A stretch of 64,000 nucleotides of DNA, taken from positions 22,542-86,541 of IMG/VR virus record IMGVR_UViG_3300033463_000022; one strand, written 5' to 3'. Positions 1,213 through 26,444 of the stretch are shown in pieces. The position numbers and the translations under genes are program-made. The notes below the pieces were generated by a model. It did not search any database. It was not told the origin of the DNA and was given only the letters and a program-made list of their open reading frames with translations. The stretch comes from a virus (taxonomy: Duplodnaviria; Heunggongvirae; Uroviricota; Caudoviricetes). Position 1 is the first letter of the stretch. Each line of letters opens with the position of its first letter.

Positions 1213-2139
1213 ATGGCAAATATCAATTCATTAACCAGAACAAATGCAACATCTTCCATTTATGGCACAAGGAATGTGCTTACGGGTCTTAGTTCGGGAC
1301 TTGACACCGAAGCTATGATTGAAAATAGTGTTTCGGGATATAAAATGAAAATTGAGTCCTTGAAACAAGAGCAAGACCTAATTGGATGGAAACAGGACGC
1401 TTATGGTAATATTATTGATAAAGCCACTAAGCTAAGCAGCAATTTTTTCTCTTATGGATCAAGCACAAACTTACTAAGTAATGGAATCTATGAAGCGGAA
1501 TCTTCTGAAAAGCTGACCCGCGCACTAAAAGACTTTGTTACTCAGTACAACGATTTAGCAACTACTCTAAGAACCGAATTCAAAACCCCCCCTAGCGACA
1601 GCGGCAACAAACCTCTTACAGAGAGCGATAAAGCCGATATGTCAGAAAACGCTATTAAGAACTATGAGGATAAGGCAAAGCAGGGCATCCTTTATAACGA
1701 TTCTGACATTACAAATTTTTATATGAAGTTAACTCAAGCAGTTTCCGCAAACTCTGCTGAGTTATCTAAACTTGGAATTAAGACTCGTTATGAAAGCGGT
1801 CTAACCACCCTTTCTTTTGATGAAGATACATTTAAGTCTGCGGCCGGAGGTATGGAGGAGCTACATGGCTTGATGAATAGGGTCAAAGGGGTAACCGAAA
1901 CCTATACTTCAACCTCGTTCTCTAACCCCGGCATCTTGAATAAGAAGGCGAGTAAGACTGACACACGTTCCGCCTGGAACCAAGAAGCCGCACGCATTGC
2001 CGAGCGAATTAAAATTCAAGAATCTCGCATGAGCCAGAAAATAGATTACTATACTCGTCAGTTTACGGCTTTGGAAAAGCTGATGAATATTATGAATAAT
2101 CAAAGCGAGATGCTTAACGGTTTAATGCTCGGTTACTAA
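1213..2139 (+). CDS. fliD: FliD-like flagellar filament cap protein homologue (308 aa)
   Basis: N-terminal LTGLSSGLDTEAMIENS and C-terminal IDYYTRQFTALEKLMNIMNN resemble FliD terminal helices; strong RBS GAAGGAGCGGATATAAT-ATG. Confidence 0.55.
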   Translation: MANINSLTRTNATSSIYGTRNVLTGLSSGLDTEAMIENSVSGYKMKIESLKQEQDLIGWKQDAYGNIIDKATKLSSNFFSYGSSTNLLSNGIYEAESSEKLTRALKDFVTQYNDLATTLRTEFKTPPSDSGNKPLTESDKADMSENAIKNYEDKAKQGILYNDSDITNFYMKLTQAVSANSAELSKLGIKTRYESGLTTLSFDEDTFKSAAGGMEELHGLMNRVKGVTETYTSTSFSNPGILNKKASKTDTRSAWNQEAARIAERIKIQESRMSQKIDYYTRQFTALEKLMNIMNNQSEMLNGLMLGY

Positions 2140-7279: not shown

Positions 7280-8143
7280 ATGTCTATTAACCCTACTTTT
7301 TCTAATACGCCAGTCCTTGCTAAAGTAAAAATTGGTAATTCCACCTATTTTCTTAAAGATGCAGAACTGCGTAATATTGTAAGCGCATTTGGTAACGCTG
7401 TCGAGCAAGACATTGCAGTTTCTATTGGCTCTGAAGCAACCGGTATTCCTCTCGCTAGTGACGTCTTCGCTTTTGTTGTCAGCGAGATTGGTACTCTTGG
7501 TCAGGCTATTACTCTTCTAAGCGAATCGGATCATACAGAAGTTTTAGTCCCTAGGAATGGTAACTTCGTAGTTGAATCCAACGGTGAAGAATGGCTATAT
7601 GTTGTTGATTCTACTACTGGTGTTGGAGCTTGGCGTGAGGTTGGCAGCGAAAATGCTTATGTTTTAAAGACATTTGAAGTTGCTGGCATTGCTATGAGTG
7701 GTTCTGAGATTACTGCTTCTCAGCTTTCTAGCGCGATGGATCTCAAGGCTTTTGCCCATGCAGATTCTGTTAGTTACACTCCAGAAGGCGGCGTTTCGGT
7801 TTCCCTTTCTACTTCCGATGTGAACGTTGTCACTTCTGTCGGCAAGCTTGGTTCTTTTAATGCGGGTTCTTATGTTGCACCTAGCATTTCTGAATCTTCT
7901 GGTTCTTTTGCAACAGCTGGTCTTGTTGCTTCTGTTGGCAGCGGCGATGATGCAGAAACTTTAATTTTGACTGCTGCAACTCTCGGTAACGCGCTTACCG
8001 CAACCAACTTTAATGCTGGCAGCTATACCGCACCTACTTATACCGGTGCAGAGCTTCCTAGTGTGGCTTCTTTTAGCGCTGCTTATGGTGTCGCTAATGC
8101 AGCTTTTAGTGGCACTAGTGCTACTATTGCTCCTGGCACTTAA
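7280..8143 (+). CDS. Ala/Ser/Gly-rich tail-fibre or structural protein (287 aa)
   Basis: RBS TAAGGAGGAATTACATT-ATG identical in context to the flagellin RBS; low-complexity A/S/G/T composition typical of fibre shafts. Confidence 0.55.
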   Translation: MSINPTFSNTPVLAKVKIGNSTYFLKDAELRNIVSAFGNAVEQDIAVSIGSEATGIPLASDVFAFVVSEIGTLGQAITLLSESDHTEVLVPRNGNFVVESNGEEWLYVVDSTTGVGAWREVGSENAYVLKTFEVAGIAMSGSEITASQLSSAMDLKAFAHADSVSYTPEGGVSVSLSTSDVNVVTSVGKLGSFNAGSYVAPSISESSGSFATAGLVASVGSGDDAETLILTAATLGNALTATNFNAGSYTAPTYTGAELPSVASFSAAYGVANAAFSGTSATIAPGT

Positions 8144-8147
8144 TATT

Positions 8148-8187
8148 AAGGACGGAGTAGATTTATTACTCCGTCCTTAATTTTTAC
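8148..8187 (+). terminator. intrinsic terminator (AAGGACGGAGTAG...CTACTCCGTCCTT plus T-run)
   Basis: 13-bp inverted repeat followed by AATTTTTA. Confidence 0.65.
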
Positions 8188-8214
8188 TGAGAAAAAGGAG
8201 TTAAAAGAATTCAT

Positions 8215-9189
8215 ATGAAGTTATAGATACTAGTCCCTCAATATAAAGAGACGGATGAAATTATTAAGTCTTTGCTGGATTCGCTTTTGATCTAGCAAAA
8301 TGTTGACTTTAATGAATTTAGCGTTATAATTGTGAATGATGGAACGGATGTTTGTTTAAGTGATAAATTACTTACTTCTTATCCGTTTAAAATAGATTAC
8401 TATAAAGCTCCACATCGAGGAGTTTCTGCTACGCGTAATACCTGTCTTGACTATGCAACGGCTGATTATGTCATGTTTTGCGATGCCGATGATATGTTTT
8501 ATAATGCGTGCGGACTGTATTTAATTTTTAGAGAGATTAATTTAGGATTTGACACGCTTTCTTCTAAGTTTATAGAGGAAGGACATACTGATAGCGGTGA
8601 AGTCGTGTATATAAATCGAGAGAACGATAGCACTTTTGTTCATGGTAAGGTTCATCGGAGGTAGTATCTAATAGATAATAACATCAGATGGAATCCAGAA
8701 CTTACAATTCATGAAGATAGCTTCTTTAACTCTCAATGCCAACTGTATACTGATAAGCCAAAGTATTTGAATGAGTCCTTTTATCTTTGGAAGTGGAGAC
8801 CCGACTCCGTCTGTAGGCGCGATCCTGAGTATATATTAAAGACTTATCCCTGTTTAATAGATAGTATAGACTCTTTAGTTGATAAACTTGAGCGAGATGG
8901 GAAGCATGAGAGAGCTGTTTATTATACGGCTTATTTATTGTTCACCAGCTACTATACTATTAATAAACCCTAGTGGAGAGATAAAAAGAACCTTGACTAC
9001 TTAATGAAAATGGAGTTAAGGTGCTATTAGTTTTTTACCAAGCATGAGAGTAAATGGAAAGAATTTCCATTAAAATCGGCTATGGAATTGAGTTCTAAAT
9101 TGCGAGTTTAGGCTATTAATGAAGGTATGCTATTGGAATAGCTTACCTTAGATTAGTGGCTAAATAAACTTATTATGAACTATAAATAA
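8215..9189 (+). CDS. family-2 (GT-A) glycosyltransferase, 324 codons with 8 in-frame TAG
   Basis: ILVPQYKETDEI...VIIVNDGTDV and YVMFCDADDMFYN (DxD) motifs; single frame open from 8215 to TAA at 9189 only if TAG is sense. Confidence 0.7.
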
Positions 9190-9203
9190 AGGAGGATCTG
9201 AAA

Positions 9204-10010
9204 ATGGCAGATATTTCTTTAATAAAGATTAATAAGACAAATATGACCTACGGTGTAAAAGATCTAGAAGCCAGATAGAGCATTGCTAATATAAAAGACG
9301 GAGTTGCCATTGATAGTTTTAGTGACGTTGAGAGTGCTTTAGCTGACAAAGTCGATGCAGAGTCTCTCGGCACGGCTGCCACTATGGAAGCAGGAGCGGC
9401 TAATGGAGTTGCCACCCTTGATAATGGTGGAAAAGTTCCTGCTAATCAGCTTCCATCTTATGTCGATGATGTTCTTGAATATGCGGACGAAGCAAGCTTC
9501 CCTGTAACAGGTGAGGTAGGAAAAATTTATGTAGATATAGCAACTGGAAAGACTTATCGTTGGAGCGGTTCTCAATATATCGAACTAAACACATATGCCG
9601 AAGCTACACAGAGCGCGTCTGGATTAATGAGTAGGAACGATAAGACAAAACTAGATGGTGTAGATGTAGGCGCGGAAGTCAATGTATAGAGCGACTGGAA
9701 TGTAACTGATAATGCATCTGACGCATATATTAAAAATAAGCCATCTATTGCTTAGATAAAGCAATATTCAGTGGTACTTGATAAAGACACTTGGGTAGCA
9801 GGACAGGATAGTTTTTCTTATACTCTATCTATCCCAACTTTAAAGTGCGGCAATGATGGAACCGTAGCTCCTATTATTACTCCAATAAGTAATATAGAAG
9901 AATATTCTACAATAGCTAGCGCAACTGCAACAGTTGGCACAGGAATTGTTTTTGTCGCGCCTGTAAAGCCAACAAAAGGCATTAGTATTATCGTTTAGGA
10001 CGTTGGCTAA
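9204..10010 (+). CDS. tail-fibre protein (268 codons, 4 TAG) with conserved fibre core domain
   Basis: GVATLDNGGKVPANQLPSYVDDVLEYADEASFPVTGEVGKIYVDIATGKTYRWSGSQYIEL and SASGLMSRNDKTKLDGV are canonical tail-fibre motifs. Confidence 0.8.
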
Positions 10011-10032
10011 TTATTATAAGGAGGAATAAATA

Positions 10033-12039
10033 ATGAGCGTAAATGCTATTTTAATGGATCAAGAAACTCTTATAGCGCCGGAATTTAGCACCAGTAACAG
10101 CTATGGGGTTGGAGATTATGTGAAATATGGAAACAGAATCTATAGATTCTTTGAAAGTAAGCCTGCTGGAGCTTGGAACGGAGGCTATGTAGAGGAAATC
10201 AGTGCTGTTGGATAGTATGTAACCGCTGGGCAGAAGAGCGGGACTACATTAGGAAGATACGCAACGGCAGAAGGATACGACACAACCGCTTCTGGCGATT
10301 ATTCTCATGCAGAAGGTGGTTCTACACACGCTTCTGGCGATTATTCTCATGCAGAAGGTGGTTCTACACACGCTACACGTATTTATTCTCACGCAGAAGG
10401 CGAATATACATATGCTAATGGTGAAGCTTCTCACGCAGAAGGCGAATCGACAAATGCTATGGAGGAAGCTTCTCATGCAGAAGGTAATCTAACAACAGCT
10501 TCTGGCGAAGCTTCTCATGCAGAGGGTTATATAACAACAGCATCTGGCGAAGCTTCTCATGCAGAAGGGAAAAATACAATAGCTGTAGGCGATAGCTCTC
10601 ACGTAGAAGGATTTATGGACTACGAAGGGGAAGGTTATTTATTTTTAACCTCAACTTCCTATAACAACAAAATTTATAAATTTAACCTTTCTCCAGAAAA
10701 CTATATCCATATTGGAACAGTGGTAAGTGTTAAGCCCAATGGTGATTGGGATAGCGCAGTTATTAAAGAAATAAATGAAGGTCAATTGACTATCACTTTA
10801 GATAAGACGTTAGGAACTTTATAGAACTAGCATGCTTTTATTGGTGCAGCTTATGGAGCATACTCTCATTCAGAAGGATATGAGACTTCGGCTGCTGGTG
10901 AAGCTTCTCATGCTGAGGGTAACGGTACAGCTGCTTTTAAGTACAATTCTCATGCAGAGGGCAACAATACAGAAGCTTCTGGCGAAGCCTCCCATGCAGA
11001 AGGCCGTTACACAACGGCTCGTGGTATTGGTTCTCATGCAGAAGGAGAGATGACAATAGCTTCTAGTTACGCTTCCCATGTAGAAGGCCGTAGTACAACT
11101 GCTTCTGGCGATTATTCTCATGCAGAAGGAGAGTATACAAAAGCATATGGAAGAGGTTCCCATGCCGAAGGAGGAGCTAGTCTCACAAATGGAAGTTTAA
11201 CTTCAACAGAGAATGATGAAGTATATTCTATCACATCAACTTCGGGTCTTAAGACTGGGGCGGCATTATCTTATAATGGTATCGCAACTGAGATTGTCTC
11301 AATAGATTCTACATCTTCTCCTAAGACAATTACATTAAGTAAAACGTTAGGAACATTATCAAACCAACAGGTTTATGTAGGTGCAGCTTCTGGCGATTGT
11401 TCCCATGCAGAAGGCGATGGGACAACTGCTTCTGGTTATTATTCTCACGCAGAAGGTCGTTACACAACTGCTTCTGGTTATGCTTCCCATGCGGAAGGTG
11501 ATAGTTCAGAAGCTGTCGGTCAAGCTTCTCACGCTGAAGGTGATAGTACAACCGCTTCCAAACCAGGCTCCCATGCGGAAGGTCATGGTACAACCGCTTC
11601 TGGCAACGCTTCCCATGCGGAAGGCTATATTACAACTGCTAAAGGCAATTATTCCCACGCAGAGGGTATTCATACAACCGCTTTCGGTGACTATTCCCAC
11701 GCAGAAGGTTTCAACACGGAGGCTGAAGGTAGTAACTCCCACGCAGAAGGAAATCGTACAACTGCTAATCATAAATCTCAACATGTATTTGGTGAGTGGA
11801 ACGTATTAGACACCAACGCCGCTGCCGCTACGGCCCGCGGAGACTACGTTGAAATTGTTGGTAACGGTTCTGGTTCTTCGGCTCGTTCTAATGCTCGAAC
11901 TCTTGACTGGTCTGGTAATGAGACCCTTGCTGGTACTTTAACCATCGGTGGCACTAACGGTATCACCCTTTCCATTGATTCTAGTGGTAATCTTAAAGTA
12001 ACAAAAGGTAATAAATCCGCCACCATTACTTTAAGTTAA
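10033..12039 (+). CDS. large tail-fibre or tail-spike protein with about 14-residue SHAEG (Hep/Hag-like) beta-repeats, 668 codons, 3 TAG
   Basis: Dozens of ...TTASG(D/E)YSHAEG... repeats; frame continuous across TAGs at 10213, 10822 and 10828. Confidence 0.75.
10289..10372 (+). repeat. perfect 42-bp tandem duplication inside the SHAEG-repeat fibre gene
   Basis: CTTCTGGCGATTATTCTCATGCAGAAGGTGGTTCTACACACG occurs twice back to back. Confidence 0.8.
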
Positions 12040-12108
12040 TAATATAAAAAAGGAGGGGAAAAGATTTTTCTTTTTCCTCCCAACTTCTTCAAGAAAGGAG
12101 TTAAATAA

Positions 12109-13704
12109 ATGGCAGATATTTCTAAAATTAAAATACCAGGCACAAATGATGCTTATAATATAAAAGATGCTGCCGCAAGAGAAGTTCTTTATCCTGTATA
12201 GCTCCCCGTCATCACCAAGCAGCCAGTCGATACTGCTAATTCTTCTGGGTATACAGTAACATTTTCAGTTAGTGCGACCGGGATTGGTCCGCTATCTTAT
12301 CAATGGGAGGTGAAAGCTCCGACAAATGACTGGCATAATTCAACTGCAAGCGGAGCAACAACCAACACTGTTTCTCCCACGCTTACTGCTAGCTCAGTAC
12401 GTGGGTATAAATGGCGATGCAAAATCTCGAATCAAAATGGATATGTGTACACAAACGAAGTAACCAATGCTCCAAAATATGATATTGCTAAACCATTTAA
12501 TAACGCTACAAATTTTCCGGTTGGGGCGTATTGTACGTATGCCGGCATTCTTTACCGCTGCACTACGGCGCATACTGGCGAGTGGGACGCCAGCCATTTT
12601 ACGGCAGTTGAAGTTGGAAACGACCTTACTGTCCTCAATTCCGCACAGCTTCCTGTTATCACTAAGCAGCCCGAAGATGTATATGGCTCGATTGGCGATA
12701 CCATATCATTTACCGTTGAAGCAACCGGGGTTGGAACGCTCACCTATTTGTGGCAGTACAAGTTGCGTGGCTCGTCTACTTGGTATAATGCCTCAGATCA
12801 AACATCAAGCACGGTTAGTTTTTCTATCGCTAATGCCAATATCGGCGAAAAAGTACGCTGCAAAATAACAAACGCCAACGGCACGATTTATTCTAACGAA
12901 GCAGCCGTTAACCCAGAATCTCGTTTTGCACTTCCCGTCATCACCAAGCAGCCCGAAGATGTGTACGTCGCGGTTGGCTCTCCGTATTCATTTAGTGTTG
13001 AAGCGACTGGGTTTGGTACACTCACCTATCAGTGGGAGTACCGATGGAGGAATCATGCGACATGGACGAACATTTCAGGAGCTACGAGCGCAACATATTC
13101 CGATTCGGGGTTGACTGATGCCGAGATTGGCGCGCAAGCTCGATGCAAAATAACCAATACAAATGGAACGGTTTATTCTAATGTAGCAACAATCAATCCA
13201 GAATTTAACTTTGCACCACAATTTGACCCCAATACCCCTGTTCCGTATGGTAGTTATGTCGTTTACAACACCGGCTTGTACCGCTGCACCAATCCGTCCG
13301 GGCATCCCGTGTCTGCGTGGGTAAATGCTGACTTCACGGCGGTCAGCGTGGGCGGGGATATCGTGAACTATCTTCCGACGCTGTTTGCGCCTGCGGGGTT
13401 CGGATTGGGCGGCAGAGGTTTTGTTTTAAATTCAAGCTTCAATTTTGATGCATCGGTGCCAGAGGAAGGAGCTATCACAAAGTCGGGGTTCTACAGTTGG
13501 AGCAGTTCGTCCGTTCCCTCTGGGTTACCGTCTTATTTTTCTAGTAAGAATGGTGTTGCGCTATTTATTGGAGCTTCTTCTGTTGGTTCTTTAATCATAG
13601 CAGCCGCTCTTGGAGGCAGCGGGGACAGCTATGTTCCCAGAATTGCTGTTCGTCAAAAATGGGCTCAAACTGCTTCAAGTTGGCACGAAATCACATTAAC
13701 TTAA
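12109..13704 (+). CDS. tail-fibre protein with three Ig-like repeats (531 codons, 1 TAG)
   Basis: N-terminus MADISKIKIPGTNDAYNIKDAAAR parallels MADISLIKINKT of the 9204 fibre; three LPVITKQPEDVY...ATG.GTLTYQW repeats. Confidence 0.7.
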
Positions 13705-13717
13705 AGGAGGAATCATT

Positions 13718-14032
13718 ATGCAGAGAGTAATCTACGAAGTCTATGCCAAAGTCGTAGACTCTAACGGCACTTACAACACTTTAAACGGATACCCCAAAGT
13801 TTTTGACAGTAAGAACTACGGCGGTGACCAACTCAAGACACGCCAGCGCGCCGAGGGAGAGTTTCATGAATGCATCGGCGCTATGTGTAAAAATGATACC
13901 CGCCAGCTTTAGAGCGTTATTCTTATGAGTGCGGACGGATTTGTACTGGACAGCAAGTCCATTGGCAGGATTGCCGACCTGCCAGATCCAGAAACTGAAG
14001 AGGACGTAGAACCAACTGAGGATGGTGTTTAA
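13718..14032 (+). CDS. hypothetical protein (104 codons, 1 TAG)
   Basis: RBS AAAGGAGGAATCATT-ATG; frame continues through TAG at 13910 to TAA at 14030. Confidence 0.45.
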
Positions 14033-14271
14033 TGTATATTATTAATGAAATTCAGACTACGGCTGATGGCACAGTTGCTATTCTTACTACTCAGAAAGCT
14101 AACCGTAACGAGGCGGAATCTGAGTACCACCGCGTTCTTCAGTATGCCGCTATCAGTACTCTCCCCTGTCATGCTGCATCAATGATGACAGAGGAAGGCT
14201 TTCCTGTCATGCACCAAGCATATAGACACGAAGTCGCTCCTATCGCGCCAGAATCTGAAAAGGAAGCGTAA
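14032..14271 (+). CDS. hypothetical protein (79 aa)
   Basis: ATG overlaps the upstream stop (TAATG). Confidence 0.4.
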   Translation: MYIINEIQTTADGTVAILTTQKANRNEAESEYHRVLQYAAISTLPCHAASMMTEEGFPVMHQAYRHEVAPIAPESEKEA

Positions 14272-14381
14272 TGACGTTGAAAAGGTGACCGCCTTTAAAT
14301 TAAAAGCGGCCGCCTTTTCAATCTTTGCAATTATTAAAAAATTAATTTATAATATATTTAGAAAGTTAAAAGGAATGACTC

Positions 14382-14609
14382 GTGTATATGAAGTTTGATA
14401 TTAAGTACAAAGATCTAAAGCCAATGCAAGTACGAGATAACTATCTTCGTGGAAAAACTTGGGGCAAATGTTGGCATTGCGGCGCCCCTACTCAATTTAT
14501 AGAGATTAACTATGAAGCTCATCTTTGCTCTGAAGAGTGCGAACAGGCGAAAGATGAAGAAATTAATGAAGCTTGTAAAAGGTTTTCGCGAGACAAAAGG
14601 TTTGATTAA
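14382..14609 (+). CDS. small Zn-ribbon hypothetical protein (75 aa)
   Basis: CWHCG...C..EC motif; preceded by promoter TTGCAA-N17-TATAAT. Confidence 0.45.
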   Translation: MYMKFDIKYKDLKPMQVRDNYLRGKTWGKCWHCGAPTQFIEINYEAHLCSEECEQAKDEEINEACKRFSRDKRFD

Positions 14610-14693
14610 AAATCTGGTCGATTAGTTTAACTAGCAAAATAAGGGATTTGTAACCCCTAGTCCTCGGAGCATCACCGAGATCGACCTCCAAAT

Positions 14694-14770
14694 GCGGATG
14701 TAGCTCAATTGGCTAGAGTGTCTGGCTTCCACCCAGAAGGTTGCGGGATCGTGCCCCGTCATCCGCTCCA
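14694..14770 (+). tRNA. tRNA-Gly(TCC)
   Basis: Acceptor GCGGATG/CATCCGC, D-arm GCTC-AATTGGCTA-GAGT, stem TCTGG/CCAGA with loop CTTCCAC, T-CCA encoded. Confidence 0.65.
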
Positions 14771-14802
14771 TTATTCACAAACAAGAGAGAAAGGAAGTAA
14801 CT

Positions 14803-15024
14803 ATGAACAACCATGTTATTGACGAAGTAATTGAGATTCTCATTAACTGGTATCAGGACGGCAAGATTAAAGTTATCGACACTCCCGCAATCGAAGATGC
14901 TTATCGCGAGCGTCTTTGCGGCGCTGACGACAGTGATGTAGATAATATTGTTGCTCTTGTTCTTCACGAACTTCAAAAAGACGAAGATAAGGAGGTTCTC
15001 CTCAAGGAGGGCACGATAGTATGA
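14803..15024 (+). CDS. hypothetical protein (73 aa)
   Basis: ORF with GAAAGGAAG RBS after the tRNA. Confidence 0.4.
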   Translation: MNNHVIDEVIEILINWYQDGKIKVIDTPAIEDAYRERLCGADDSDVDNIVALVLHELQKDEDKEVLLKEGTIV

Positions 15025-15212
15025 ACTTAGTTCAAAATCTTGTCGATGAAGTGAAGTGGCGTTATAAGATAGGCTCCATTGATAAGATTAATGCGGAAGC
15101 TGTTACAGAAGTCGCAGAGGAAATATATCCCAATTTGGGAATTCACAACAGTGATTTTACTTCCAATCTTGACCTTGGAGGTTTAGTCTTCGAAGCTCTA
15201 ATGAAGATATGA
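15021..15212 (+). CDS. hypothetical protein (63 aa)
   Basis: Overlapping start (ATGA), GGAGG RBS. Confidence 0.35.
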   Translation: MNLVQNLVDEVKWRYKIGSIDKINAEAVTEVAEEIYPNLGIHNSDFTSNLDLGGLVFEALMKI

Positions 15213-15661
15213 AAGTTAAAATTTCTTACTTTTATAAAGTTAGATTCTTCAAACCTACCGATATCCCCCTTAGTACCGCTTGGTTAGATCCAAAATGGTA
15301 CTACAACAAGAGACAAGGAGAAGCGTACCGAGATAAACGTGGTGTAATAAATGGCTTGCGGGCGTCGGCTTTCGCACCGGGGCGCCTATGTGAAGGATTA
15401 TGCCACGGAAAAGAAGGTTGCGGTAAGTCTCCCGAGACGTGCGATTTTCTCCAGATGTATCACGTTCAGCTCAAGCATTTAGATTTTGAAGGCATTATGC
15501 GAGAGATGGAATGTCTTTGTAATGAATATGGTGGGGATGCTATCGTTCTCTTAGTACACGAATCTCCAGATAATCCCTGTAGCGAACGCTCAATGATAAT
15601 TAAATGGTTTAAAGAAAATAATTATGAATTAAAGGAGTATAATGAAAATGTATCCGATTGA
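15209..15661 (+). CDS. hypothetical Cys-rich protein (150 aa)
   Basis: Translationally coupled ORF; no recognisable family. Confidence 0.4.
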   Translation: MKVKISYFYKVRFFKPTDIPLSTAWLDPKWYYNKRQGEAYRDKRGVINGLRASAFAPGRLCEGLCHGKEGCGKSPETCDFLQMYHVQLKHLDFEGIMREMECLCNEYGGDAIVLLVHESPDNPCSERSMIIKWFKENNYELKEYNENVSD

Positions 15662-15992
15662 CAAGTACAAGTTCTACACTGATGATCCGAAGAACCCGAC
15701 CAAGATCTACGCTGTTTCTACCTACGCCGGCAGAACTGTGCGTGGTGTTGCAAAGTGCGATCCTCGCGATAAGTTCTCTATGCAGCAGGGTAAGGAGCTT
15801 GCGGCCGCTCGTTGTGAGCTAAAGGTTGCTCAGAAGCGCAAGGCTCGTGCTATACGCTTGTTCGCCGAAGCTACTGCTCGTAAGGCGCAGGCTCTCAAGT
15901 ACGCCGACAAGATGGCTCAGTACGCAGCTGACGCTGATAATGCAGCTATTAACGCCGAAGATCGTATCAACACTCTTCTCGAAAAGATGTAA
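15642..15992 (+). CDS. hypothetical protein (116 aa, basic/Ala-rich C-terminus)
   Basis: GC-rich ORF with AAGGAG RBS. Confidence 0.4.
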   Translation: MKMYPIDKYKFYTDDPKNPTKIYAVSTYAGRTVRGVAKCDPRDKFSMQQGKELAAARCELKVAQKRKARAIRLFAEATARKAQALKYADKMAQYAADADNAAINAEDRINTLLEKM

Positions 15993-16029
15993 TTGCGGCC
16001 GCCGCCTAAAGCGGCGCCTATGCAGGATG

Positions 16030-16245
16030 AACCGGACAAGCGCGCCGGAACCGCCTTGAAAGCGGATTGTAGGGAAACCTATGGAGAGCATGCCTTCCGT
16101 CCTGCGCCATATATACAGCATTAACCAGACAAGCGTGCTGGGCTCGCCTCGAAAGCGAAGCGGAGGGAAACCTCTAGGGTGCAAGTCCTTAGTGCTGTGC
16201 CAGCCCGCGAGGGCAAATCGCGCGGACGAAGGATTGTCCGTAATA
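16030..16245 (+). promoter_or_regulatory. structured GC-rich 5' leader of the flagellin gene with two about 57-nt direct repeats carrying GGA motifs
   Basis: AACCGGACAAGCGCGCCGG...GTAGGGAAACCTATGGAG and AACCAGACAAGCGTGCTGG...GGAGGGAAACCTCTAGGG; SD AAGGAGGA also contains GGA. Confidence 0.4.
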
Positions 16246-16266
16246 TTTTTTAAGGAGGAATACATT

Positions 16267-17466
16267 ATGCGTATTCAACACAATGTCACCGCGATGAACA
16301 GCTATCGCAACTTCAACACCAACAACTCCAATCTCAGCAAGAACCTTGAGAAGCTCTCTTCTGGCTACAAGATCAACCGCGCTGGAGACGACGCCGCAGG
16401 TCTGGCAATCTCCGAGAAAATGCGTGCATAGATCACTGGCCTCGAGGGCGCAACCAAAAACGCCAAGGACGGCATTTCCCTTATCCAGACCGCAGAAGGC
16501 GCACTTACCGAGGTACATTCGATGCTCAACCGTATGACTACTCTTGCCGAGCAGTCTGCAAACGGCACTTATGATAACGACGTCGACCGTACCCAGCTCC
16601 AGAAGGAAGTAGATGCGCTCAAGACCGAAATCAACCGCATTGCCGATTCCACCAACTTCAACGGCATCAAGCTTCTTGATGGCAGCCTTGGTGGATGGAA
16701 CAACACCACCGATATCACCGATTCCATGACTTACACTAGCTTCGATGTTTCTGGCGGCAAGCTCAAGAACGGCGACGCAGTCACCGTTACTCAGAGCGCT
16801 AGCGGCATGGATATTAAGTCGGTCACCGTAGGCGGTGTGACTATCGCAAAGGCCGATCTGGCTGGTAAGGGTCTTACTTGGGAAGCAGATGCCGACAATC
16901 CCGCAGGGAAGACTGGCGCATATAAGTTTACTCTCAAGGTCTCTGACCGCTCCAAGGCAACTGCCGAAGTCGCCGACGCCATTGGCGAAGGTCTCTCGGT
17001 CGCTGTCAACGTAAAGGAGAAGGTTACCTCCAATACTGATCTCGCGTTCACCACTGATGGCACTGGCGGCGGTCTGACTCTTCAGATTGGCGATACCAGC
17101 GACGACTTCAACAAGATGAATGTTCTTGTTGGAGATATGCACACCCAGGCTCTGGGCATTGCTGATATTGATATCAGCACCCAGGAAGGTGCATCCAGCG
17201 CTATGGATCTTATCAAGAACGCTATCAACCAGGTCTCTGACACTCGTGGCGGTCTTGGTGCCCTCCAGAATCGTCTTGACCACACCATCAACAACCTCGG
17301 AACCATGCGCGAGAACATTCAGAACGCTGAGTCCAACATCCGCGATACTGACGTCGCAGAGGAAATGATGGCGTACACCAAGAACAACATTCTGAACCAG
17401 GCTGCTCAGGCTATGCTTGCGCAGGCGAATCAGATGCCTCAGGGCGTACTCCAGCTCCTTCAGTAA
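16267..17466 (+). CDS. fliC: flagellin (FliC/Hag family), 399 codons, 1 in-frame TAG read as Gln
   Basis: [16 protein letters not shown]...[51 protein letters not shown] and C-terminal [15 protein letters not shown]...[16 protein letters not shown]; the universal MRAQI Gln is encoded by TAG. Confidence 0.9.
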
Positions 17467-17565
17467 TACGCAAACTGCGGAGGGGCTTCAATGCCCCTCC
17501 AAAGTAAAAAATTTGCAATAATTAAAAAAATATTTTATAATATATTTGTAAGAATTAAGAAAGGC

Positions 17566-17674
17566 ACTTACAGCAATTATTTACATAATGTAAATGTCGT
17601 AGGTTCAACTCCTACTTCCGCCACGCGGCAGAATAGCTCAATGGATAGAGCGTTACAACTATATTTTGTGCCTT
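17566..17674 (+). ncRNA. circularly permuted tRNA-like (Y-RNA/YrlA-like) element framed by AAGGCAC/GTGCCTT
   Basis: Order is anticodon 3'-strand TGTAA, variable ATGTC, T-arm GTAGG-TTCAACT-CCTAC, acceptor 3' TTCCGCC, tight loop ACGC, acceptor 5' GGCAGAA, D-arm GCTC-AATGGATA-GAGC, anticodon 5'-strand TTACA; RNA ends sit in the anticodon-stem position and carry TTACAGCAAT. Confidence 0.4.
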
Positions 17675-17684
17675 GTTTGTATAA

Positions 17685-17758
17685 TCCGGCTTAGCATAAT
17701 AGTAGTGCAGGGGTCTCTAAAACCTCGGGACTCGGAGCGTAACCGAGAGCCGGTGCCA
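17685..17758 (+). tRNA. candidate amber-suppressor tRNA, anticodon CUA (reads UAG), with Gln-like identity elements
   Basis: Acceptor TCCGGCT/AGCCGGT (1:72 unpaired), D-arm GCAT-AATAGTA-GTGC, stem GGGGT/ACCTC with loop CTCTAAA, T-arm CTCGG-AGCGTAA-CCGAG, discriminator G73, CCA encoded; D and T loops noncanonical. Confidence 0.5.
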
Positions 17759-17813
17759 TCGCAAGCAAGGTTACTATCTCTATCAGTAGCCTTGCTTTTT
17801 TCTTTTTATATCT

Positions 17814-17889
17814 CCGTCGGTAGCCAAGTTGGTAAGGCACCGCACTTTTAATGCGGGTATCGCGGGTTCAAGTCCCGCCCGACGGACCA
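17814..17889 (+). tRNA. tRNA-Lys(TTT)
   Basis: Acceptor CCGTCGG/CCGACGG, stem CCGCA/TGCGG with loop CTTTTAA, T-arm GCGGG-TTCAAGT-CCCGC, A-CCA encoded. Confidence 0.7.
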
Positions 17890-17893
17890 ATAT

Positions 17894-17969
17894 GCGGGTG
17901 TAACTTAATTGGCAGAGTAGCGGTCTCTTAAACCGAAGGTTGCAGGTTCAACTCCTGTCACCCGCACCA
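17894..17969 (+). tRNA. tRNA-Lys(CTT)
   Basis: Acceptor GCGGGTG/CACCCGC, anticodon loop CTCTTAA, T-arm GCAGG-TTCAACT-CCTGT, A-CCA encoded. Confidence 0.65.
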
Positions 17970-18822: not shown

Positions 18823-20343
18823 ATGAACACTTTGCTTAAGTCCATGAAAGAGTCTCAGAACTATAAGTTGACCGAGAACGGTGGCGTTTCCTACAAGTCC
18901 ACCCTGTCCGGTCTGCTCGACCTGTTCGCGATGGGCGGCTCCTATCGTTCTCGCTCTGACGACGACTGTATCCTCTTGTTCAAGAAGGCTTTCGCAGAGG
19001 ACGAAGTGCACGCATTGCGTTGCCTCTTCTACCTTCGTGACTGCCGCGGCGGCCAGGGTGAGCGTCGCTTCTTCCGCGTTGTCATGAAGTGGCTGGCTAA
19101 CGAGAACACCGAGGCTGCTCGTCGTAACCTTGAACACGTTCCTGAGTTCGGCCGCTGGGATGACCTCTACGCTTTCCTCGGCACTCCGCTCGAGCGTGAG
19201 GCTATGGGAATGATCCGGCACCAGCTCGCTCTGGACGTTCAGTGCAAGACCCCGTCTCTGCTCGCCAAGTGGCTGCCGTCCGAAAACGCTTCGTCTCTCA
19301 AGACTCGCGCTCTTGCTACGAAGACTCGTCGCTTCCTGATGATGACCTCGAAGCAGTACCGTAAGGTTCTGTCTACGCTTCGTAAGCGCATCAACGTCCT
19401 TGAGCGTCTTATGAGTGAGGGCCGTTGGGACGAGATCGAGTTCGATAAGATTCCGTCTAAGGCGGGCCTTATCTACCGCAACGCCTTTGCTCGTCACGAC
19501 GTAGAGCGTGCCAAGAACGAGAACGTCCAGACCTATGCTGACTTCGCTAAGGATAAGACCACTAAGGTCAACGCAGAGACTCTCTATCCTTGCGATGTTG
19601 TGCATAAGGCTCTTGGCACTCGTAGCTACTGGGGCGGACATCAATCCGCGATGGATGCGACTGAGCGCGCTATGTTGAATAAGTACTGGGATAATCTTCA
19701 CGATTACTTCCAGAACGCTGTGTTCAACGGTGTTGCTGTTGTTGATACGTCCAGTTCCATGTGGAGCTGTCGCGGCAACGTGAAGGTTGCTCCTATGGAC
19801 GTGGCATGCGCCCTGGGTATGTACTGCGCTGAGAAGTGCAATCCGAACAGTCCGTGGCACGGTCACTACATCAGCTTCTCTCACCAGGCTCGTCTTGTTG
19901 AGATTGAGGGTGTAGACTTCGTGGATAAGGTTCGCCGCATCCGCGACCACGACCTCTGCGAGAACACCAACATCGAGAGCGTGTTCGAGCTTATCCTCAG
20001 CCTCGCGGTGAAGAACCGCGTTCCGCAGAAGGATATGCCTAAGAACATCGTCATTATCTCCGATCTCGAATTCGATGAGGCTCAGGGGTACGATCGTCGT
20101 TCCAATGAGACCGTTATGGAAAAATGGGTTCGGAAATATGAGGAGTGCGGATATACTTGCCCTAAGATTGTCTTCTGGAATGTTGATTGTCGAAATGACA
20201 ATATTCCCATGAAAGACAACGGCAATGTCACTTTTGTGTCGGGGTATAGTCCCTCCCTTTTCGAGCAGCTCCTTACCGGCAAAACCGGTTTGGATTTCGT
20301 GCTCGATAAGCTCGACAGCGAAAGATACTCCTGTATCCGCTAA
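18823..20343 (+). CDS. TROVE-like plus vWA (MIDAS) domain protein, Ro60/Rsr-like; GC-rich and TAG-free
   Basis: N-terminal pattern NGGVSYKSTLSGLLDLF..GGSY and RDCRGGQGER resembles the Ro60 TROVE N-terminus; MIDAS VAVVDTSSSM...IVIISDLEFD; strong RBS AAGGAGAATGAAAG-ATG; GC content far above flanks. Confidence 0.55.
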   Translation: MNTLLKSMKESQNYKLTENGGVSYKSTLSGLLDLFAMGGSYRSRSDDDCILLFKKAFAEDEVHALRCLFYLRDCRGGQGERRFFRVVMKWLANENTEAARRNLEHVPEFGRWDDLYAFLGTPLEREAMGMIRHQLALDVQCKTPSLLAKWLPSENASSLKTRALATKTRRFLMMTSKQYRKVLSTLRKRINVLERLMSEGRWDEIEFDKIPSKAGLIYRNAFARHDVERAKNENVQTYADFAKDKTTKVNAETLYPCDVVHKALGTRSYWGGHQSAMDATERAMLNKYWDNLHDYFQNAVFNGVAVVDTSSSMWSCRGNVKVAPMDVACALGMYCAEKCNPNSPWHGHYISFSHQARLVEIEGVDFVDKVRRIRDHDLCENTNIESVFELILSLAVKNRVPQKDMPKNIVIISDLEFDEAQGYDRRSNETVMEKWVRKYEECGYTCPKIVFWNVDCRNDNIPMKDNGNVTFVSGYSPSLFEQLLTGKTGLDFVLDKLDSERYSCIR

Positions 20344-25061: not shown

Positions 25062-26444
25062 ATGTCTGAACACGTCGGTTATATCGTGAAGGTTGAATTC
25101 CTTCGTCCGCACTCTAACGCTGATCGCCTCAATATTCTCACCGTTTTCGGCGAAGATACCTGTGTTTCTAAGGAAGTTCAGGTTGGCGATATCGGCATCT
25201 ATTTCCCTTGCGATCTCCAGCTGAGCGAGGAGTACTGCGACCAGAACCACCTTTGCCGCAAGAAGGCAGATGGTACTCCCGATACTGGTTATCTTGAGCG
25301 CAACACTCGTCATGTGACCGCCATCAAGCTCCGCGGTGAGAAGTCTAGCGGTCTCTATATGCCTCTCTCTTCTCTTGCTTACTGCGGCAACGCTTCCTTT
25401 GAGGTCGGTCAGAAGATCGACATGGTGAACGGTCATGAAATCTGCCGCAAGTATATCCCCCGTTCTAACACCCGCCAGGGGCAGGTTAGCGAGGGCAACC
25501 GCACTCGCAAAAAGCGCGTGCCTTTGGCGCCTCTCTTCGCTGAGCACGCTGACACTGAGCAGCTTGCTTACAACCTGGCAGCCTTTAAGCCTGGTGACCT
25601 CGTTGAGATCACCTTGAAGATGCACGGCACTTCTCAGCGTACTGGCTACCTGCCTAAGTACTCTGGCGAAAAGCGCACCTTCTGGCAGAAGCTGTTCAAT
25701 AAGCCTGGCACTCCTATCTACGACTGGGGTTATGTAACCGGCACTCGCCGCACCGTACTTAACGACTTCGACGAGGGCGGCTTCTATGGCAACAACGAGT
25801 TCCGTTCGGGCCCCGCCAAGTTCTTCGAGGGTAAGTTGGAGAAGGGTGAAACTGTCTACTACGAAGTCGTAGGTTTCACCACTTCTGGTGCGCCTATCAT
25901 GGCTTCTCAGTCCAACAAGCAGGTTGATAAGCTTCTTGGCGACAAGAGCTTCTCTCAGAAGTACGGCGAGACTACAGTCTTCTCCTATGGTTGCACTCCG
26001 GACGGTGATCTCCAGCAGGACTTCTATGTCTACCGCATGACCTTCACCAACGAGGATGGCTTCGTCGTAGAGTATACTCCCGACTTCATGCGCTATCGTT
26101 GCGAGCAGATGGGAGCTAAGTGCGTACCGCTGCTTTGGAAGGGATTTATTCCAAAGACGCCAAAGCGTTATCCATCCAATGAAGATGGCCTCACCTTCCG
26201 CGAGGAAGAGTGTAGCGCTGGCGAGTATGTTAAGGCAATCGCCGAGGAATACTTCGACGGTCCCGACCCTGTCGGTAAGACCCACGTTCGCGAGGGCGTT
26301 GTCTGCCGTATCGTAAATCGTCCGAAGTTCTGCGCCTACAAGCACAAGAACTTCTCCTTCAAGGTGCTCGAAGGCCTCATTAAGGAGAACGCGCAGGCTC
26401 CTGACATGGAAGAAGCCGAAGATATCAAGAGCGATGAAATCTAG
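25062..26444 (+). CDS. Rnl2-family ATP-dependent RNA ligase fused to an N-terminal tRNA-binding OB domain; GC-rich, TAG-free
   Basis: Nucleotidyltransferase motif I EITLKMHGTSQRTG matches T4 Rnl2 KIHGTN; N-terminal VKVEFLRPHSNADRLNIL resembles the Myf/CsaA tRNA-binding fold. Confidence 0.65.
   Translation: MSEHVGYIVKVEFLRPHSNADRLNILTVFGEDTCVSKEVQVGDIGIYFPCDLQLSEEYCDQNHLCRKKADGTPDTGYLERNTRHVTAIKLRGEKSSGLYMPLSSLAYCGNASFEVGQKIDMVNGHEICRKYIPRSNTRQGQVSEGNRTRKKRVPLAPLFAEHADTEQLAYNLAAFKPGDLVEITLKMHGTSQRTGYLPKYSGEKRTFWQKLFNKPGTPIYDWGYVTGTRRTVLNDFDEGGFYGNNEFRSGPAKFFEGKLEKGETVYYEVVGFTTSGAPIMASQSNKQVDKLLGDKSFSQKYGETTVFSYGCTPDGDLQQDFYVYRMTFTNEDGFVVEYTPDFMRYRCEQMGAKCVPLLWKGFIPKTPKRYPSNEDGLTFREEECSAGEYVKAIAEEYFDGPDPVGKTHVREGVVCRIVNRPKFCAYKHKNFSFKVLEGLIKENAQAPDMEEAEDIKSDEI

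What the first reader, a model, noticed from the sequence alone, without database searches (positions are those of the whole stretch)
16030..17466. Phage-encoded flagellin, and a FliD-like cap protein at 1213..2139, with a repeat-structured GGA-rich leader suggestive of CsrA-type control
A full-length FliC/Hag homologue with conserved D0/D1 termini and a variable middle is encoded by the phage and uses a TAG for the conserved Gln, so it is adapted to the phage code. A FliD-like gene lies at 1213..2139. The flagellin 5' UTR has two about 57-nt direct repeats forming hairpins with GGA motifs, plus a GGA-containing SD, reminiscent of CsrA binding sites on Bacillus hag mRNA. Possible roles include host-flagellum remodelling, immune or TLR5 decoy, or a structural fibre component.
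Basis: partly seen in the sequence, partly recalled or inferred. Interest (0 to 1): 0.7.

Follow-up and report, generated by a model that had tools for sequence, protein, structure and literature searches.

The report
Phage flagellin, headless cap, odd tRNAs
A large phage that reads TAG as glutamine carries an intact copy of its host's flagellar filament protein and a truncated filament-cap protein. The "repeated leader" in front of the filament gene is really two unusual serine tRNA genes, and only the last 45 bases before the gene look like the host's CsrA translational switch.

Summary
The flagellin gene is real (16267..17466, 399 aa). It is full length once TAG at codon 55 is read as Gln; a sister phage has CAG there. 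It lies on a phage contig recovered identically from independent assemblies, and it is under strong purifying selection between two phage lineages (dN/dS 0.06 at dS 0.79). The FliD-like gene (1213..2139) is also real, but it lacks the D2-D3 head.

The "two 57-nt repeats with GGA hairpins" are misread. They are two 88-nt units (16022-16109, 16115-16202). Each is a cloverleaf with an 8-bp acceptor stem, a 4-bp T stem, a long variable arm and a GCCA end, with anticodons UGA and CGA. These are (8/4) serine tRNAs, a class already reported from phages.

The CsrA idea survives in a different place. A hairpin with AGGA in its loop (16222-16241) plus the SD AAGGAGGA (16252-16259) repeats the leader architecture of the closest bacterial flagellin genes, many of which sit beside fliW-csrA.

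Most likely the phage feeds its own flagellin into the host flagellum, gated by amber suppression and host CsrA-FliW. That function is inferred, not shown. Phage flagellins have a precedent, so this is a new variant of a known kind.

The parts
16267..17466 (+). Flagellin gene, 399 aa, with TAG (Gln) at codon 55 (16429-16431) and stop TAA at 17464-17466
   Evidence: Pfam Flagellin_N and Flagellin_C. PDB flagellins 3e-80. dN/dS 0.06 against the sister-phage allele. Termini are 91-94% and 83-84% identical to Oscillospiraceae flagellins; the middle domain is only 42-49% identical to its best bacterial matches.
16022..16109 (+). Non-canonical (8/4) tRNA-Ser gene, anticodon UGA, G73, encoded CCA (first 'leader repeat')
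   Evidence: Fold. Covariation of the 8/4 structure. Covariance model R1 scores 96.6 bits. Missed by ARAGORN and by the Rfam tRNA model.
16115..16202 (+). Non-canonical (8/4) tRNA-Ser gene, anticodon CGA, G73, encoded CCA (second 'leader repeat')
   Evidence: 87.8 bits. The sister phage L013 has only the UGA copy.
16222..16241 (+). Leader hairpin of 8 bp with AGGA (16230-16233) in the loop; a candidate CsrA site equivalent to BS1 of hag and fliC leaders
   Evidence: Conserved in the sister phage and in the bacterial locus L044, with a compensatory C-G to U-A change. Hairpins with GGA in the loop occur in 43 of 72 bacterial homologue leaders against 3-7 of about 72 controls.
16252..16259 (+). 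Shine-Dalgarno AAGGAGGA, 7 nt before the ATG; a candidate second CsrA site (BS2 type)
   Evidence: Sequence. The stretch from SD to ATG is identical in the sister phage. All 76 bacterial leaders have GGAG or AGGA in the SD region.
17479..17500 (+). G+C-rich hairpin directly after the flagellin stop codon; probable 3' end or stabiliser of the transcript
   Evidence: Sequence. Read from the sequence only; not tested.
17685..17758 (+). Amber suppressor tRNA (anticodon CUA) needed to read flagellin codon 55
   Evidence: ARAGORN. Rfam tRNA 40.8 bits. U1.U72 mismatch and G73 read from the sequence.
14325..14353 (+). Nearest upstream promoter-like site (TTGCAA-N17-TATAAT); possible start of a transcript running through tRNAs and small ORFs to the flagellin
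   Evidence: 3 matches in the window against 0.13 expected. A consensus match only.
1213..2139 (+). FliD-like cap protein, 308 aa. It keeps the N- and C-terminal helical 'leg' (D0-D1) and lacks the D2-D3 head.
   Evidence: Pfam. About 180 aa are missing relative to a related phage's 489-aa FliD and about 470 aa relative to a bacterial 791-aa FliD. AlphaFold model pLDDT 83, helical. The best structural matches are FliD chains of cap-filament complexes.

Best explanation
A large phage that reads TAG as Gln carries two flagellar genes captured from an Oscillospiraceae-type Clostridia host. Its replication genes resemble those of SPbeta-like phages. The captured genes are an intact flagellin and a cap protein reduced to its leg domains.

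The 250 nt upstream of the flagellin are not a regulatory leader. They hold two tandem genes for (8/4) serine tRNAs that belong to the phage's tRNA arrays.

The true leader is the last 45 nt or so. It is a hairpin displaying AGGA, followed by a GGA-containing Shine-Dalgarno sequence, copied with the gene from the host.

Proposed mechanism:
1. The gene is transcribed from phage promoters, not from a sigma-28 promoter, probably on a transcript that also holds tRNAs. tRNA processing would then free the flagellin mRNA (inferred).
2. Full-length translation needs the phage amber suppressor tRNA (shown from the sequence).
3. Initiation is repressed by host CsrA bound to the hairpin and the SD. Repression is relieved when FliW is free, that is, in cells actively exporting flagellin (inferred from conservation and from the known Hag-FliW-CsrA circuit).
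4. The protein has near-host D0/D1 termini and a different, smaller surface domain. It is exported by the host flagellar apparatus and co-polymerises into the host filament, changing its surface (inferred).
5. The headless FliD probably modifies or competes with the host cap (speculative).
For: Identity and integrity of the flagellin.

TAG reads as Gln. Flagellin Gln codons are 18 CAG, 1 CAA and 1 TAG.

Phage context:
- Topoisomerase II, ligase, Sak4, DnaB, primase, Dda helicase and a 1298-aa polymerase 40% identical to SPbeta YorL.
- Tail-fibre-like genes.
- At least 18 tRNAs.

Independent assemblies carry the same sequence.

Selection: dN/dS 0.06 overall; 0.018 in the N-terminal part, 0.094 in the middle, 0.039 in the C-terminal part.

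Mosaic, host-like termini.

The repeats are tRNA-Ser (8/4). The class is described in PMC5389517.

Leader:
- The hairpin and SD are conserved between the window, the sister phage and bacterial L044, while the flanks are not alignable. There is one compensatory stem change.
- Hairpins with GGA in the loop are enriched in bacterial homologue leaders.
- csrA lies immediately upstream of the flagellin gene in at least 15 bacterial loci. One 65%-identical homologue has the full flgM-flgN-flgK-flgL-fliW-csrA-flagellin operon.
- Published work reports CsrA RIP-seq enrichment at a fliC 5' UTR stem-loop in csrA-tldR-fliC loci, a clade that includes Oscillibacter and Flavonifractor (PMC13418256).
- BS1 and BS2 of the B. 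subtilis hag and C. difficile fliC leaders are described in PMC8523840.

No sigma-28 motif lies near either gene. The window holds no csrA, fliW or fliS.

Precedent for flagellar remodelling by a prophage flagellin: PMC13418256.
Against: - No expression, binding or assembly data exist.
- The host is inferred only from protein similarity.
- The leader hairpin is followed by a T run in both phages and was flagged as terminator-like. It could instead, or also, end the tRNA transcript, which would leave the flagellin without a recognised promoter.
- GC3 of the flagellin (0.63) is far from that of the phage replication genes (0.39). So leader conservation could partly reflect limited divergence, although dS of 0.79 between the two phage alleles argues otherwise.
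- A cap protein without its head might block filament growth rather than help it.
- The phage's lifestyle (temperate or virulent) is unknown. That bears on which benefit is plausible.
Confidence: 0.55

Rival explanations
1. Supply, not remodelling. The phage flagellin only keeps the infected cell motile and chemotactic after host flagellar transcription is shut off. It acts as an auxiliary gene, and its different surface domain has no significance.
For: The gene has lost the sigma-28 promoter that its bacterial homologues carry and sits behind phage-type promoters. It keeps the export and polymerisation termini.
Against: The middle domain is the most divergent part relative to any bacterial flagellin (42-49% identity), yet it is still under purifying selection (dN/dS 0.09). 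A headless FliD is not needed for simple supply.
Confidence: 0.17
2. Virion component. The flagellin-like and FliD-like proteins build a fibre or decoration on the phage particle rather than entering the host flagellum.
For: Both genes lie next to the tail-fibre-like module at 6381-13704. The flagellin carries an in-frame TAG, as the late structural genes do, whereas the replication genes have none. A 'putative flagellin-like protein' is listed beside tail proteins in other TAG-recoded gut phages (PMC10607447).
Against: D0/D1 is 91-94% identical to bona fide bacterial flagellins. A host-type, CsrA-responsive leader is retained. Flagellin normally polymerises only at a capped filament tip after export. 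PHROGs holds no tail or head family for either protein.
Confidence: 0.1
3. Regulatory decoy. The leader RNA or the flagellin protein titrates host CsrA or FliW to reprogramme the host CsrA regulon or to shut off host flagellin, without any need for assembly.
For: The candidate CsrA sites are retained. Close bacterial relatives have fliW-csrA next to the flagellin gene. The flagellin matches Hag chains from two PDB entries (5maw, 6gow) at about 1e-70; I recall these as FliW/FliS complexes, and the search output names them only 'Flagellin'.
Against: The whole protein, including the surface domain, is under purifying selection. A decoy would need only the leader or the C-terminus. The FliD homologue is left unexplained.
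Confidence: 0.1
4. The two upstream repeats are structured parts of the flagellin 5' UTR that present GGA motifs to CsrA.
For: The repeats lie directly upstream on the same strand and contain GGA triplets.
Against: The structure is a covarying 8/4 cloverleaf with a GCCA end and serine anticodons only. The same element sits in unrelated phage tRNA arrays with no flagellin nearby. The sister phage has one copy, not two. Bacterial homologue leaders lack it.
Confidence: 0.03
5. Neutral passenger. The flagellar genes were recently captured from host DNA and have no function for the phage.
For: Host-like codon usage of the flagellin (GC3 0.63 against 0.39 for the polymerase).
Against: The gene is conserved in the same synteny in two phage lineages separated by dS 0.79, with dN/dS 0.06. 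A CAG-to-TAG change tolerated only under the phage code. Short FliD forms are conserved at 52% identity on other contigs, at least one with a phage-like neighbour.
Confidence: 0.05

Closest known systems
Prophage-encoded flagellin FliC_P of the Enterobacter flagellin-remodelling prophage FR-phi (TldR system; PMC13418256)
   Same: A phage carries its own flagellin isoform with host-compatible termini. In FR-phi it replaces host flagellin in the filament and changes motility and immune recognition.
   Different: No TldR/TnpB-like gene was found among the window's large ORFs. The host lineage is Firmicutes rather than Enterobacteria. The phage is about 147 kb, tRNA-rich and TAG-recoded. It adds a headless FliD. 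Control is proposed to act through amber suppression and host CsrA rather than by RNA-guided repression of the host gene.
Hag/FliC-FliW-CsrA flagellin homeostasis circuit of B. subtilis and C. difficile (PMC6529632, PMC8523840)
   Same: The leader has one GGA site in a hairpin loop and one overlapping the SD. Phage BS1-like ACGAAGGAUUGU compares with C. difficile ACAAGGAUGU, and the BS2-like site is UAAGGAGG in both.
   Different: Here the leader sits on a phage gene with no csrA or fliW in the window and no sigma-28 promoter. No binding has been tested.
(8/4) tRNA-Ser of the allo-tRNA group (Mukai et al. 2017, PMC5389517)
   Same: 8-bp acceptor stem, 4-bp T stem, long variable arm, G73, serine anticodons, and occurrence in phage tRNA clusters.
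   Different: The D arm here is a 4-bp stem with a conserved 9-nt loop ACAAGCGYG, not the long stem with tetraloop described for the allo-tRNA consensus. The T loop has G55 in most members. I could not compare with the published sequences because no supplement is held.
phAss-1 group ('Phassvirus'): TAG-recoded gut phages of about 135 kb (PMC10607447)
   Same: Similar genome size, dozens of tRNAs, tRNA-Sup(CUA), TAG read as Gln mainly in structural genes, a predicted Clostridia (possibly Oscillospiraceae) host, and an ORF annotated 'putative flagellin-like protein'.
   Different: Relatedness to this window was not established. Those genomes did not appear among the best GenBank phage matches to the polymerase or the flagellin. 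Their flagellin-like ORF was not analysed in that paper.
Bacterial filament cap FliD (for example the Salmonella cap-filament complex 9gnz and Campylobacter 6sih)
   Same: FliD_N and FliD_C regions. The predicted helical leg matches D0-D1 of solved FliD at Foldseek probability 1.0.
   Different: The D2-D3 head that forms the cap plate is absent.

Membership tests
Bacterial flagellin (FliC/Hag) | N-terminal helical region (Pfam Flagellin_N, D0/D1) | tested here: met
   8.4e-44, residues 3-140, above cut-off
Bacterial flagellin (FliC/Hag) | C-terminal helical region (Pfam Flagellin_C, D1/D0) | tested here: met
   8.5e-29, residues 313-398. Aligns to the last residue of the 6t17 flagellin.
Bacterial flagellin (FliC/Hag) | Export by the flagellar type III system and polymerisation into a filament | not testable with these tools
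   Only inferred, from 91-94% N-terminal and 83-84% C-terminal identity to bacterial flagellins.
FliD filament cap | FliD_N and FliD_C regions | tested here: met
   1.5e-8 and 3.8e-19, both above cut-offs. A profile of homologues hits solved FliD at 6e-21.
FliD filament cap | D2-D3 head domains forming the cap plate | tested here: not met
   About 180 residues are absent relative to the related phage FliD P0122. Residues 94-561 of a bacterial FliD have no counterpart. The model is helical with one beta hairpin.
(8/4) tRNA-Ser (allo-tRNA group) | 12-bp acceptor branch split into an 8-bp acceptor stem and a 4-bp T stem | tested here: met
   Pair 8:84 is GC 7, AU 5, UA 3, CG 2 (17 of 17 paired). 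The pair required by the 7/5 alternative, 68:84, is unpaired in 12 of 17.
(8/4) tRNA-Ser (allo-tRNA group) | Long variable arm and discriminator G73 (SerRS identity elements) | tested here: met
   Variable-arm hairpins UAGG-GAAA-CCUA and GAGG-GAAA-CCUC. Both units end in GCCA.
(8/4) tRNA-Ser (allo-tRNA group) | Serine anticodon in a 7-nt anticodon loop | tested here: met
   Loops CUUGAAA (UGA) and CUCGAAA (CGA). Across the family only UGA, CGA, GGA and GCU occur.
(8/4) tRNA-Ser (allo-tRNA group) | tRNA-Sec-like D arm (long stem, tetraloop) described for the allo-tRNA consensus | tested here: not met
   4-bp D stem with a 9-nt loop. The published figure for the (8/4) tRNA-Ser subclass could not be consulted, so this may not be required for that subclass.
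(8/4) tRNA-Ser (allo-tRNA group) | Serylation and use in translation | not testable with these tools
   None.
CsrA-controlled flagellin leader (hag/fliC type) | Two GGA sites, one in a hairpin loop upstream and one overlapping the SD | tested here: met
   Hairpin 16222-16241 with loop AGGA; SD AAGGAGGA at 16252-16259.
CsrA-controlled flagellin leader (hag/fliC type) | Architecture conserved in homologous leaders beyond chance | tested here: met
   43 of 72 leaders (stem of at least 5 bp) against 7 of 72 and 3 of 73 controls; shuffles average 4.2. Compensatory change against L044.
CsrA-controlled flagellin leader (hag/fliC type) | CsrA and FliW available in the cell | tested here: inconclusive
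   csrA is adjacent to the flagellin gene in at least 15 related bacterial loci, and fliW-csrA in L102. None is in the phage window. The actual host is unknown.
CsrA-controlled flagellin leader (hag/fliC type) | CsrA binding that blocks translation initiation | not testable with these tools
   Published RIP-seq for related bacterial fliC leaders only.
TldR-associated prophage flagellin (FR-phi type) | TnpB-derived TldR gene and guide RNA next to the phage flagellin | tested here: not met
   The neighbours are tRNAs, small ORFs with no family match, a GIY-YIG endonuclease and a Ro60-like protein. No ORF of at least 300 aa scanned in the window matched a TnpB-like family. Only 64 kb of about 147 kb was seen.

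The most novel reading that the evidence does not exclude
A large TAG-recoded phage rebuilds the tip of its host's flagellum with two parts of its own. One is a flagellin with host-type polymerisation termini and a foreign surface domain. The other is a legs-only FliD that inserts into or displaces the host cap. Production would be triple-gated by phage promoters, amber suppression and the host FliW-CsrA checkpoint. This would be the first phage known to carry a cap protein, and the first natural headless FliD. It could serve to mask or shed a flagellar receptor (superinfection exclusion or release of progeny), or to divert the flagellar export channel.
Probability: 0.25. Interest if true: 0.75.

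Novelty: new variant of a known kind. Interest (0 to 1): 0.55.

Why it matters
Flagella are motility organelles, phage receptors and major targets of gut immunity, so a phage that swaps the filament subunit changes all three.

The only worked example is a temperate Enterobacter phage that uses an RNA-guided repressor. This window suggests a second, independent route in gut Clostridia. The phage keeps the host's translational checkpoint on the captured gene, adds dependence on its own suppressor tRNA, and brings a truncated cap protein.

It also gives a concrete case for testing whether in-frame TAG codons time the expression of accessory genes.

There is a practical lesson too. Non-canonical phage tRNAs missed by standard tRNA finders can be mistaken for regulatory leaders.

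Tried and rejected
- **Riboswitch or known RNA family.** I first suspected a tandem riboswitch, for example c-di-GMP. Rfam gave nothing at gathering or at E up to 10 for 15950-16320.
- **7/5 cloverleaf for the repeats.** Rejected in favour of 8/4.
- **Leader hairpin as a pure intrinsic terminator.** It was flagged, but bacterial homologues keep the hairpin without a T run.
- **Sigma-28 promoter upstream of either gene.** None found.
- **csrA, fliW, fliS, flgK/L/M/N in the window.** None found by tblastn.
- **A functional link between the Ser tRNAs and flagellin codon usage.** The flagellin has 0 UCA and 3 UCG codons.
- **Other phages with the pair.**
  - An IMG/VR scan found one partial flagellin relative at a contig end (80% identical over the N-terminal 141 residues, 74% over the C-terminal 121).
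  - It also found one weak N-terminal FliD fragment.
  - GenBank phages gave 11 unannotated or fragmentary flagellin matches.
  - The single metagenome DNA scan returned only the sister allele.
- **Apparent 'permuted tRNA' at 17561-17677.** It turned out to match the Y RNA-like family YrlA.
- **Supplementary sequences of the allo-tRNA paper.** Not held.
- **PHROGs for FliD and the small neighbouring ORFs.** No families.
Full report
**What is at the coordinates.**
- The ATG at 16267 opens a 400-codon frame ending at TAA 17464-17466, with one internal TAG at 16429-16431.
- With that codon read as Gln, the 399-aa product matches Pfam Flagellin_N (8.4e-44) and Flagellin_C (8.5e-29).
- It aligns from residue 1 to 399 with solved filament-forming flagellins of Firmicutes (6t17 at 3e-80; B. 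subtilis Hag entries at about 1e-70). The TAG falls on the Gln of EKMRGQI.
- The 92%-identical allele in a sister phage has CAG at that codon.
- A tRNA with anticodon CUA lies at 17685-17758.
- Treating TAG as sense raises + strand ORF coverage of the window from 68% to 82%.
- TAG is absent from 5,028 codons of replication genes but supplies 9 of 42 Gln codons in the tail-fibre-like genes.

**It is a phage, and it is not a chimera.**
- All ORFs are on one strand.
- The window encodes two topoisomerase II subunits, a DNA ligase, Sak4, DnaB, a primase and a Dda-like helicase. It also encodes a 1298-aa polymerase that is 40% identical over 99% of its length to SPbeta YorL.
- It also holds tail-fibre-like proteins (Mtd_N, YadA-head repeats, Ig domains) and at least 18 tRNA genes.
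- Window 13522-17943, which covers the upstream ORFs, both repeats, the flagellin and the downstream tRNAs, is 100% identical to contigs assembled separately from two sequencing runs.
- Window 1-6260 and 380-12139, which carry the FliD-like gene, recur at 100% and 99.2% identity in JGI and ENA assemblies.
- A second lineage (L013, L014) has the same order: small ORFs, tRNA-Ser, flagellin, Y-RNA-like element, suppressor tRNA, then a PDDEXK_5 gene and the DUF2828 gene.

**The gene is maintained by selection.**
- Between the two phage alleles dS is 0.79 and dN/dS is 0.06. By region, dN/dS is 0.018 for residues 1-140, 0.094 for 141-270 and 0.039 for 271-399.
- The protein is a mosaic. Its termini are 91-94% (N) and 83-84% (C) identical to Oscillospiraceae flagellins of 570-590 aa. 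Its 130-residue middle is only 42-49% identical to anything bacterial, the best matches being flagellins of about 405 aa.
- Full-length bacterial neighbours (65-68% identity) sit in ordinary flagellar and chemotaxis loci.
- Named relatives are Intestinimonas, Oscillibacter, Flavonifractor and other Oscillospiraceae or Lachnospiraceae.

**The repeats.**
- The direct repeat is real but is 2 x 88 nt with a 93-nt period, 73% identical over the 91-nt aligned repeat.
- Each unit folds into an outer stem enclosing hairpins and ends in GCCA. Neither ARAGORN nor Rfam recognises them.
- A pattern taken from the conserved D arm and anticodon arm hit 11 IMG/VR phage contigs, usually among tRNA genes and often in several copies.
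- In an alignment of 17 distinct members, a cloverleaf with an 8-bp acceptor stem and a 4-bp T stem is 99.1% paired, and 16 of 20 pairs change on both sides. The eighth acceptor pair is GC 7, AU 5, UA 3, CG 2. The pair that a canonical 7/5 fold would need instead is unpaired in 12 of 17.
- Anticodon loops read CUNGAAA or UUGCUAA, giving only UGA, CGA, GGA and GCU, which are serine anticodons from both codon boxes.
- A long variable arm and G73 are present.
- A covariance model built from the family scores 96.6 and 87.8 bits on the two window copies and nothing else comparable. It hits the window's canonical tRNAs weakly, at their exact borders.
- In about 1 Mb of fetched loci it scores strongly only in phage loci.
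- This is the (8/4) tRNA-Ser class that Mukai et al. reported from bacteriophages, proteobacteria and rumen Clostridia (PMC5389517).
- The D arm (4 bp with a 9-nt loop) differs from the Sec-like D arm described for the allo-tRNA consensus.
- The sister phage has one copy (UGA), so the CGA copy is an extra gene in this lineage.
- The flagellin contains no UCA and only three UCG codons, so the adjacency is positional rather than functional.

**The real leader.**
- Between the second tRNA and the ATG lie a small GC hairpin (16203-16214), an 8-bp hairpin at 16222-16241 whose loop is AGGA, a T-rich spacer, and the SD AAGGAGGA at 16252-16259.
- An alignment of the window, the sister phage and the locus of an Oscillospiraceae genome (L044) shows conservation starting at the hairpin and running to the ATG. 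Sequence upstream is unalignable. One stem pair is changed compensatorily, C-G in the phages and U-A in the bacterium.
- Across 72 distinct leaders of bacterial homologues, a hairpin with GGA in its loop lies between -70 and -16 in 43 (stem of at least 5 bp). Two control regions give 7 of 72 and 3 of 73, and shuffles average 4.2. All 76 leaders have a GGA-type SD.
- csrA lies directly upstream of the flagellin gene in at least 15 of these loci. A 65%-identical homologue sits in flgM-flgN-flgK-flgL-DUF6470-fliW-csrA-yjfB-flagellin.
- The arrangement of two sites is that of the B. subtilis hag leader and of the predicted C. difficile fliC leader (PMC8523840; PMC6529632).
- CsrA RIP-seq enrichment at a fliC 5' UTR stem-loop has been reported for csrA-tldR-fliC loci, a clade that includes Oscillibacter and Flavonifractor (PMC13418256).
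- The bacterial genes have sigma-28-type promoters. The phage has none near either flagellar gene.
- The only promoter-like motif is TTGCAA-N17-TATAAT, which occurs three times against 0.13 expected: at 14325, just after the FliD-like gene (2144) and just after the flagellin (17513).
- The window has no csrA, fliW or fliS.

**The FliD-like gene.**
- It passes both Pfam FliD thresholds, but it is 308 aa long.
- Against a related phage's 489-aa FliD it aligns at residues 1-94 (71% identity) and 98-307 (62%), with about 180 residues missing between them.
- Against a bacterial 791-aa FliD, only residues 3-93 and 562-790 have counterparts.
- Three other short forms (316-320 aa, 52% identity) share the same deletion. 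One lies next to a PDDEXK_5 gene like the one in the sister phage.
- The AlphaFold model (pLDDT 83, pTM 0.74) is a helical bundle with one beta hairpin.
- Its best structural matches are FliD chains in Salmonella cap-filament complexes and Campylobacter FliD, at probability 1.0 over about 220 columns.
- It is therefore a FliD leg (D0-D1) without the D2-D3 plate, so I do not file it as a complete cap protein.

**Interpretation.**
- Shown from sequence and comparison:
  - an intact, selected flagellin in a TAG-recoded phage;
  - its dependence on amber suppression;
  - two (8/4) tRNA-Ser genes upstream;
  - a host-type hairpin-plus-SD leader;
  - a headless FliD.
- Inferred: translation is checked by host CsrA-FliW.
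- Inferred: the protein is exported and co-polymerises with host flagellin, altering the filament surface as in the Enterobacter prophage FR-phi.
- Speculative: the headless FliD alters or poisons the cap.
- Rivals are ranked in the report sections: simple supply of flagellin, a virion fibre, a CsrA/FliW decoy and a neutral passenger.
- Retention of a CsrA-responsive leader and near-host termini argues against a virion role.
- Selection across the whole protein argues against the decoy and passenger readings.

**Prior knowledge and novelty.**
- Phage flagellins are rare in collections:
  - 11 doubtful records among 50,697 GenBank phages;
  - one partial relative in IMG/VR;
  - one weak FliD fragment in IMG/VR;
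  - a PHROG family of 'unknown function' that matches flagellin.
- They are not unprecedented. FR-phi carries one, and a 'putative flagellin-like protein' is mentioned without analysis in TAG-recoded gut phages of about 135 kb with a predicted Clostridia host.
- (8/4) tRNA-Ser and CsrA control of flagellin are both known.
- New here are the combination, the headless FliD, and the carry-over of the CsrA leader onto a phage gene.

Noticed in passing
window 17561-17677 (RNA) and 18823-20343 (protein): A Y RNA-like element (Rfam YrlA, 34.8 bits, E 3.5e-6, below the gathering score) lies between the flagellin and the suppressor tRNA. It is conserved in the sister phage with compensatory changes in its acceptor-like stem. 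A Ro60/TROVE-like protein (DUF2828, phrog_850 at 6e-125) and an RNA-ligase-like ORF (25062-26450) are nearby. Together they suggest a phage Ro-Y RNA module beside the tRNA arrays.
   Followed up: partly
window 805-880: Another tRNA-like sequence, missed by ARAGORN and Rfam. It has the anticodon loop CUCAUAA (CAU) and an ACCA end, and sits directly upstream of the canonical tRNA-Met. The sequence at 700-800 also looks like tRNA fragments.
   Followed up: no
window 17685-17758; alignment A1 of the 8/4 tRNA family: The amber suppressor tRNA has a U1.U72 mismatch, G73 and the T loop AGCGUAA (G55 instead of U55). This is the same variant elbow as in the 8/4 Ser tRNAs. In that family, T-loop positions 54:58 covary (A:U, U:A, G:G), and the D loop ACAAGCG goes with G55 while ACAGGCG goes with U55.
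   Followed up: partly
window 44774-45733: A GIY-YIG homing-endonuclease-like ORF with 24 in-frame TAG codons in 319 codons. It is far more heavily recoded than any other gene in the window.
   Followed up: no
window 2144-2172, 14325-14353, 17513-17541: An identical promoter-like motif, TTGCAA-(A/T-rich 17)-TATAAT, occurs only three times (0.13 expected). Each copy lies just upstream of a tRNA array, and two of them lie immediately after the FliD-like and flagellin stop codons.
   Followed up: partly
window 26434-27048 and 30243-31526: The phage carries a formate/nitrite-transporter-like gene (1.3e-26) and a xanthine/uracil permease gene (2.3e-82). Membrane transporters are unusual phage cargo.
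   Followed up: no
window 58722-62618: The 1298-aa DNA polymerase is 40% identical over 99% of its length to YorL of the temperate Bacillus phage SPbeta. The phage may therefore belong to an SPbeta-like lineage, and it cannot be assumed to be virulent.
   Followed up: partly
window 1027-1117 and 1213: The FliD-like gene also directly follows a serine tRNA (canonical tRNA-Ser GCU, 96 nt upstream), just as the flagellin follows two 8/4 Ser tRNAs. This is probably positional, since both genes sit at the ends of tRNA-rich units.
   Followed up: no
window 8215-9189: A family-2 glycosyltransferase with 8 in-frame TAG codons is embedded in the tail-fibre-like module. Whether it modifies fibres, flagellin or host surface glycans is unknown.
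   Followed up: no
L107 (CP027117.1, Bacillus phage EZ-2018a, 73673-74575): An unannotated 118-kb GenBank 'phage' record from Bacillus pumilus contains a 301-aa flagellin ORF, about 60-65% identical to the window's flagellin in the terminal domains. It could be another phage-borne flagellin or a misassigned record.
   Followed up: partly
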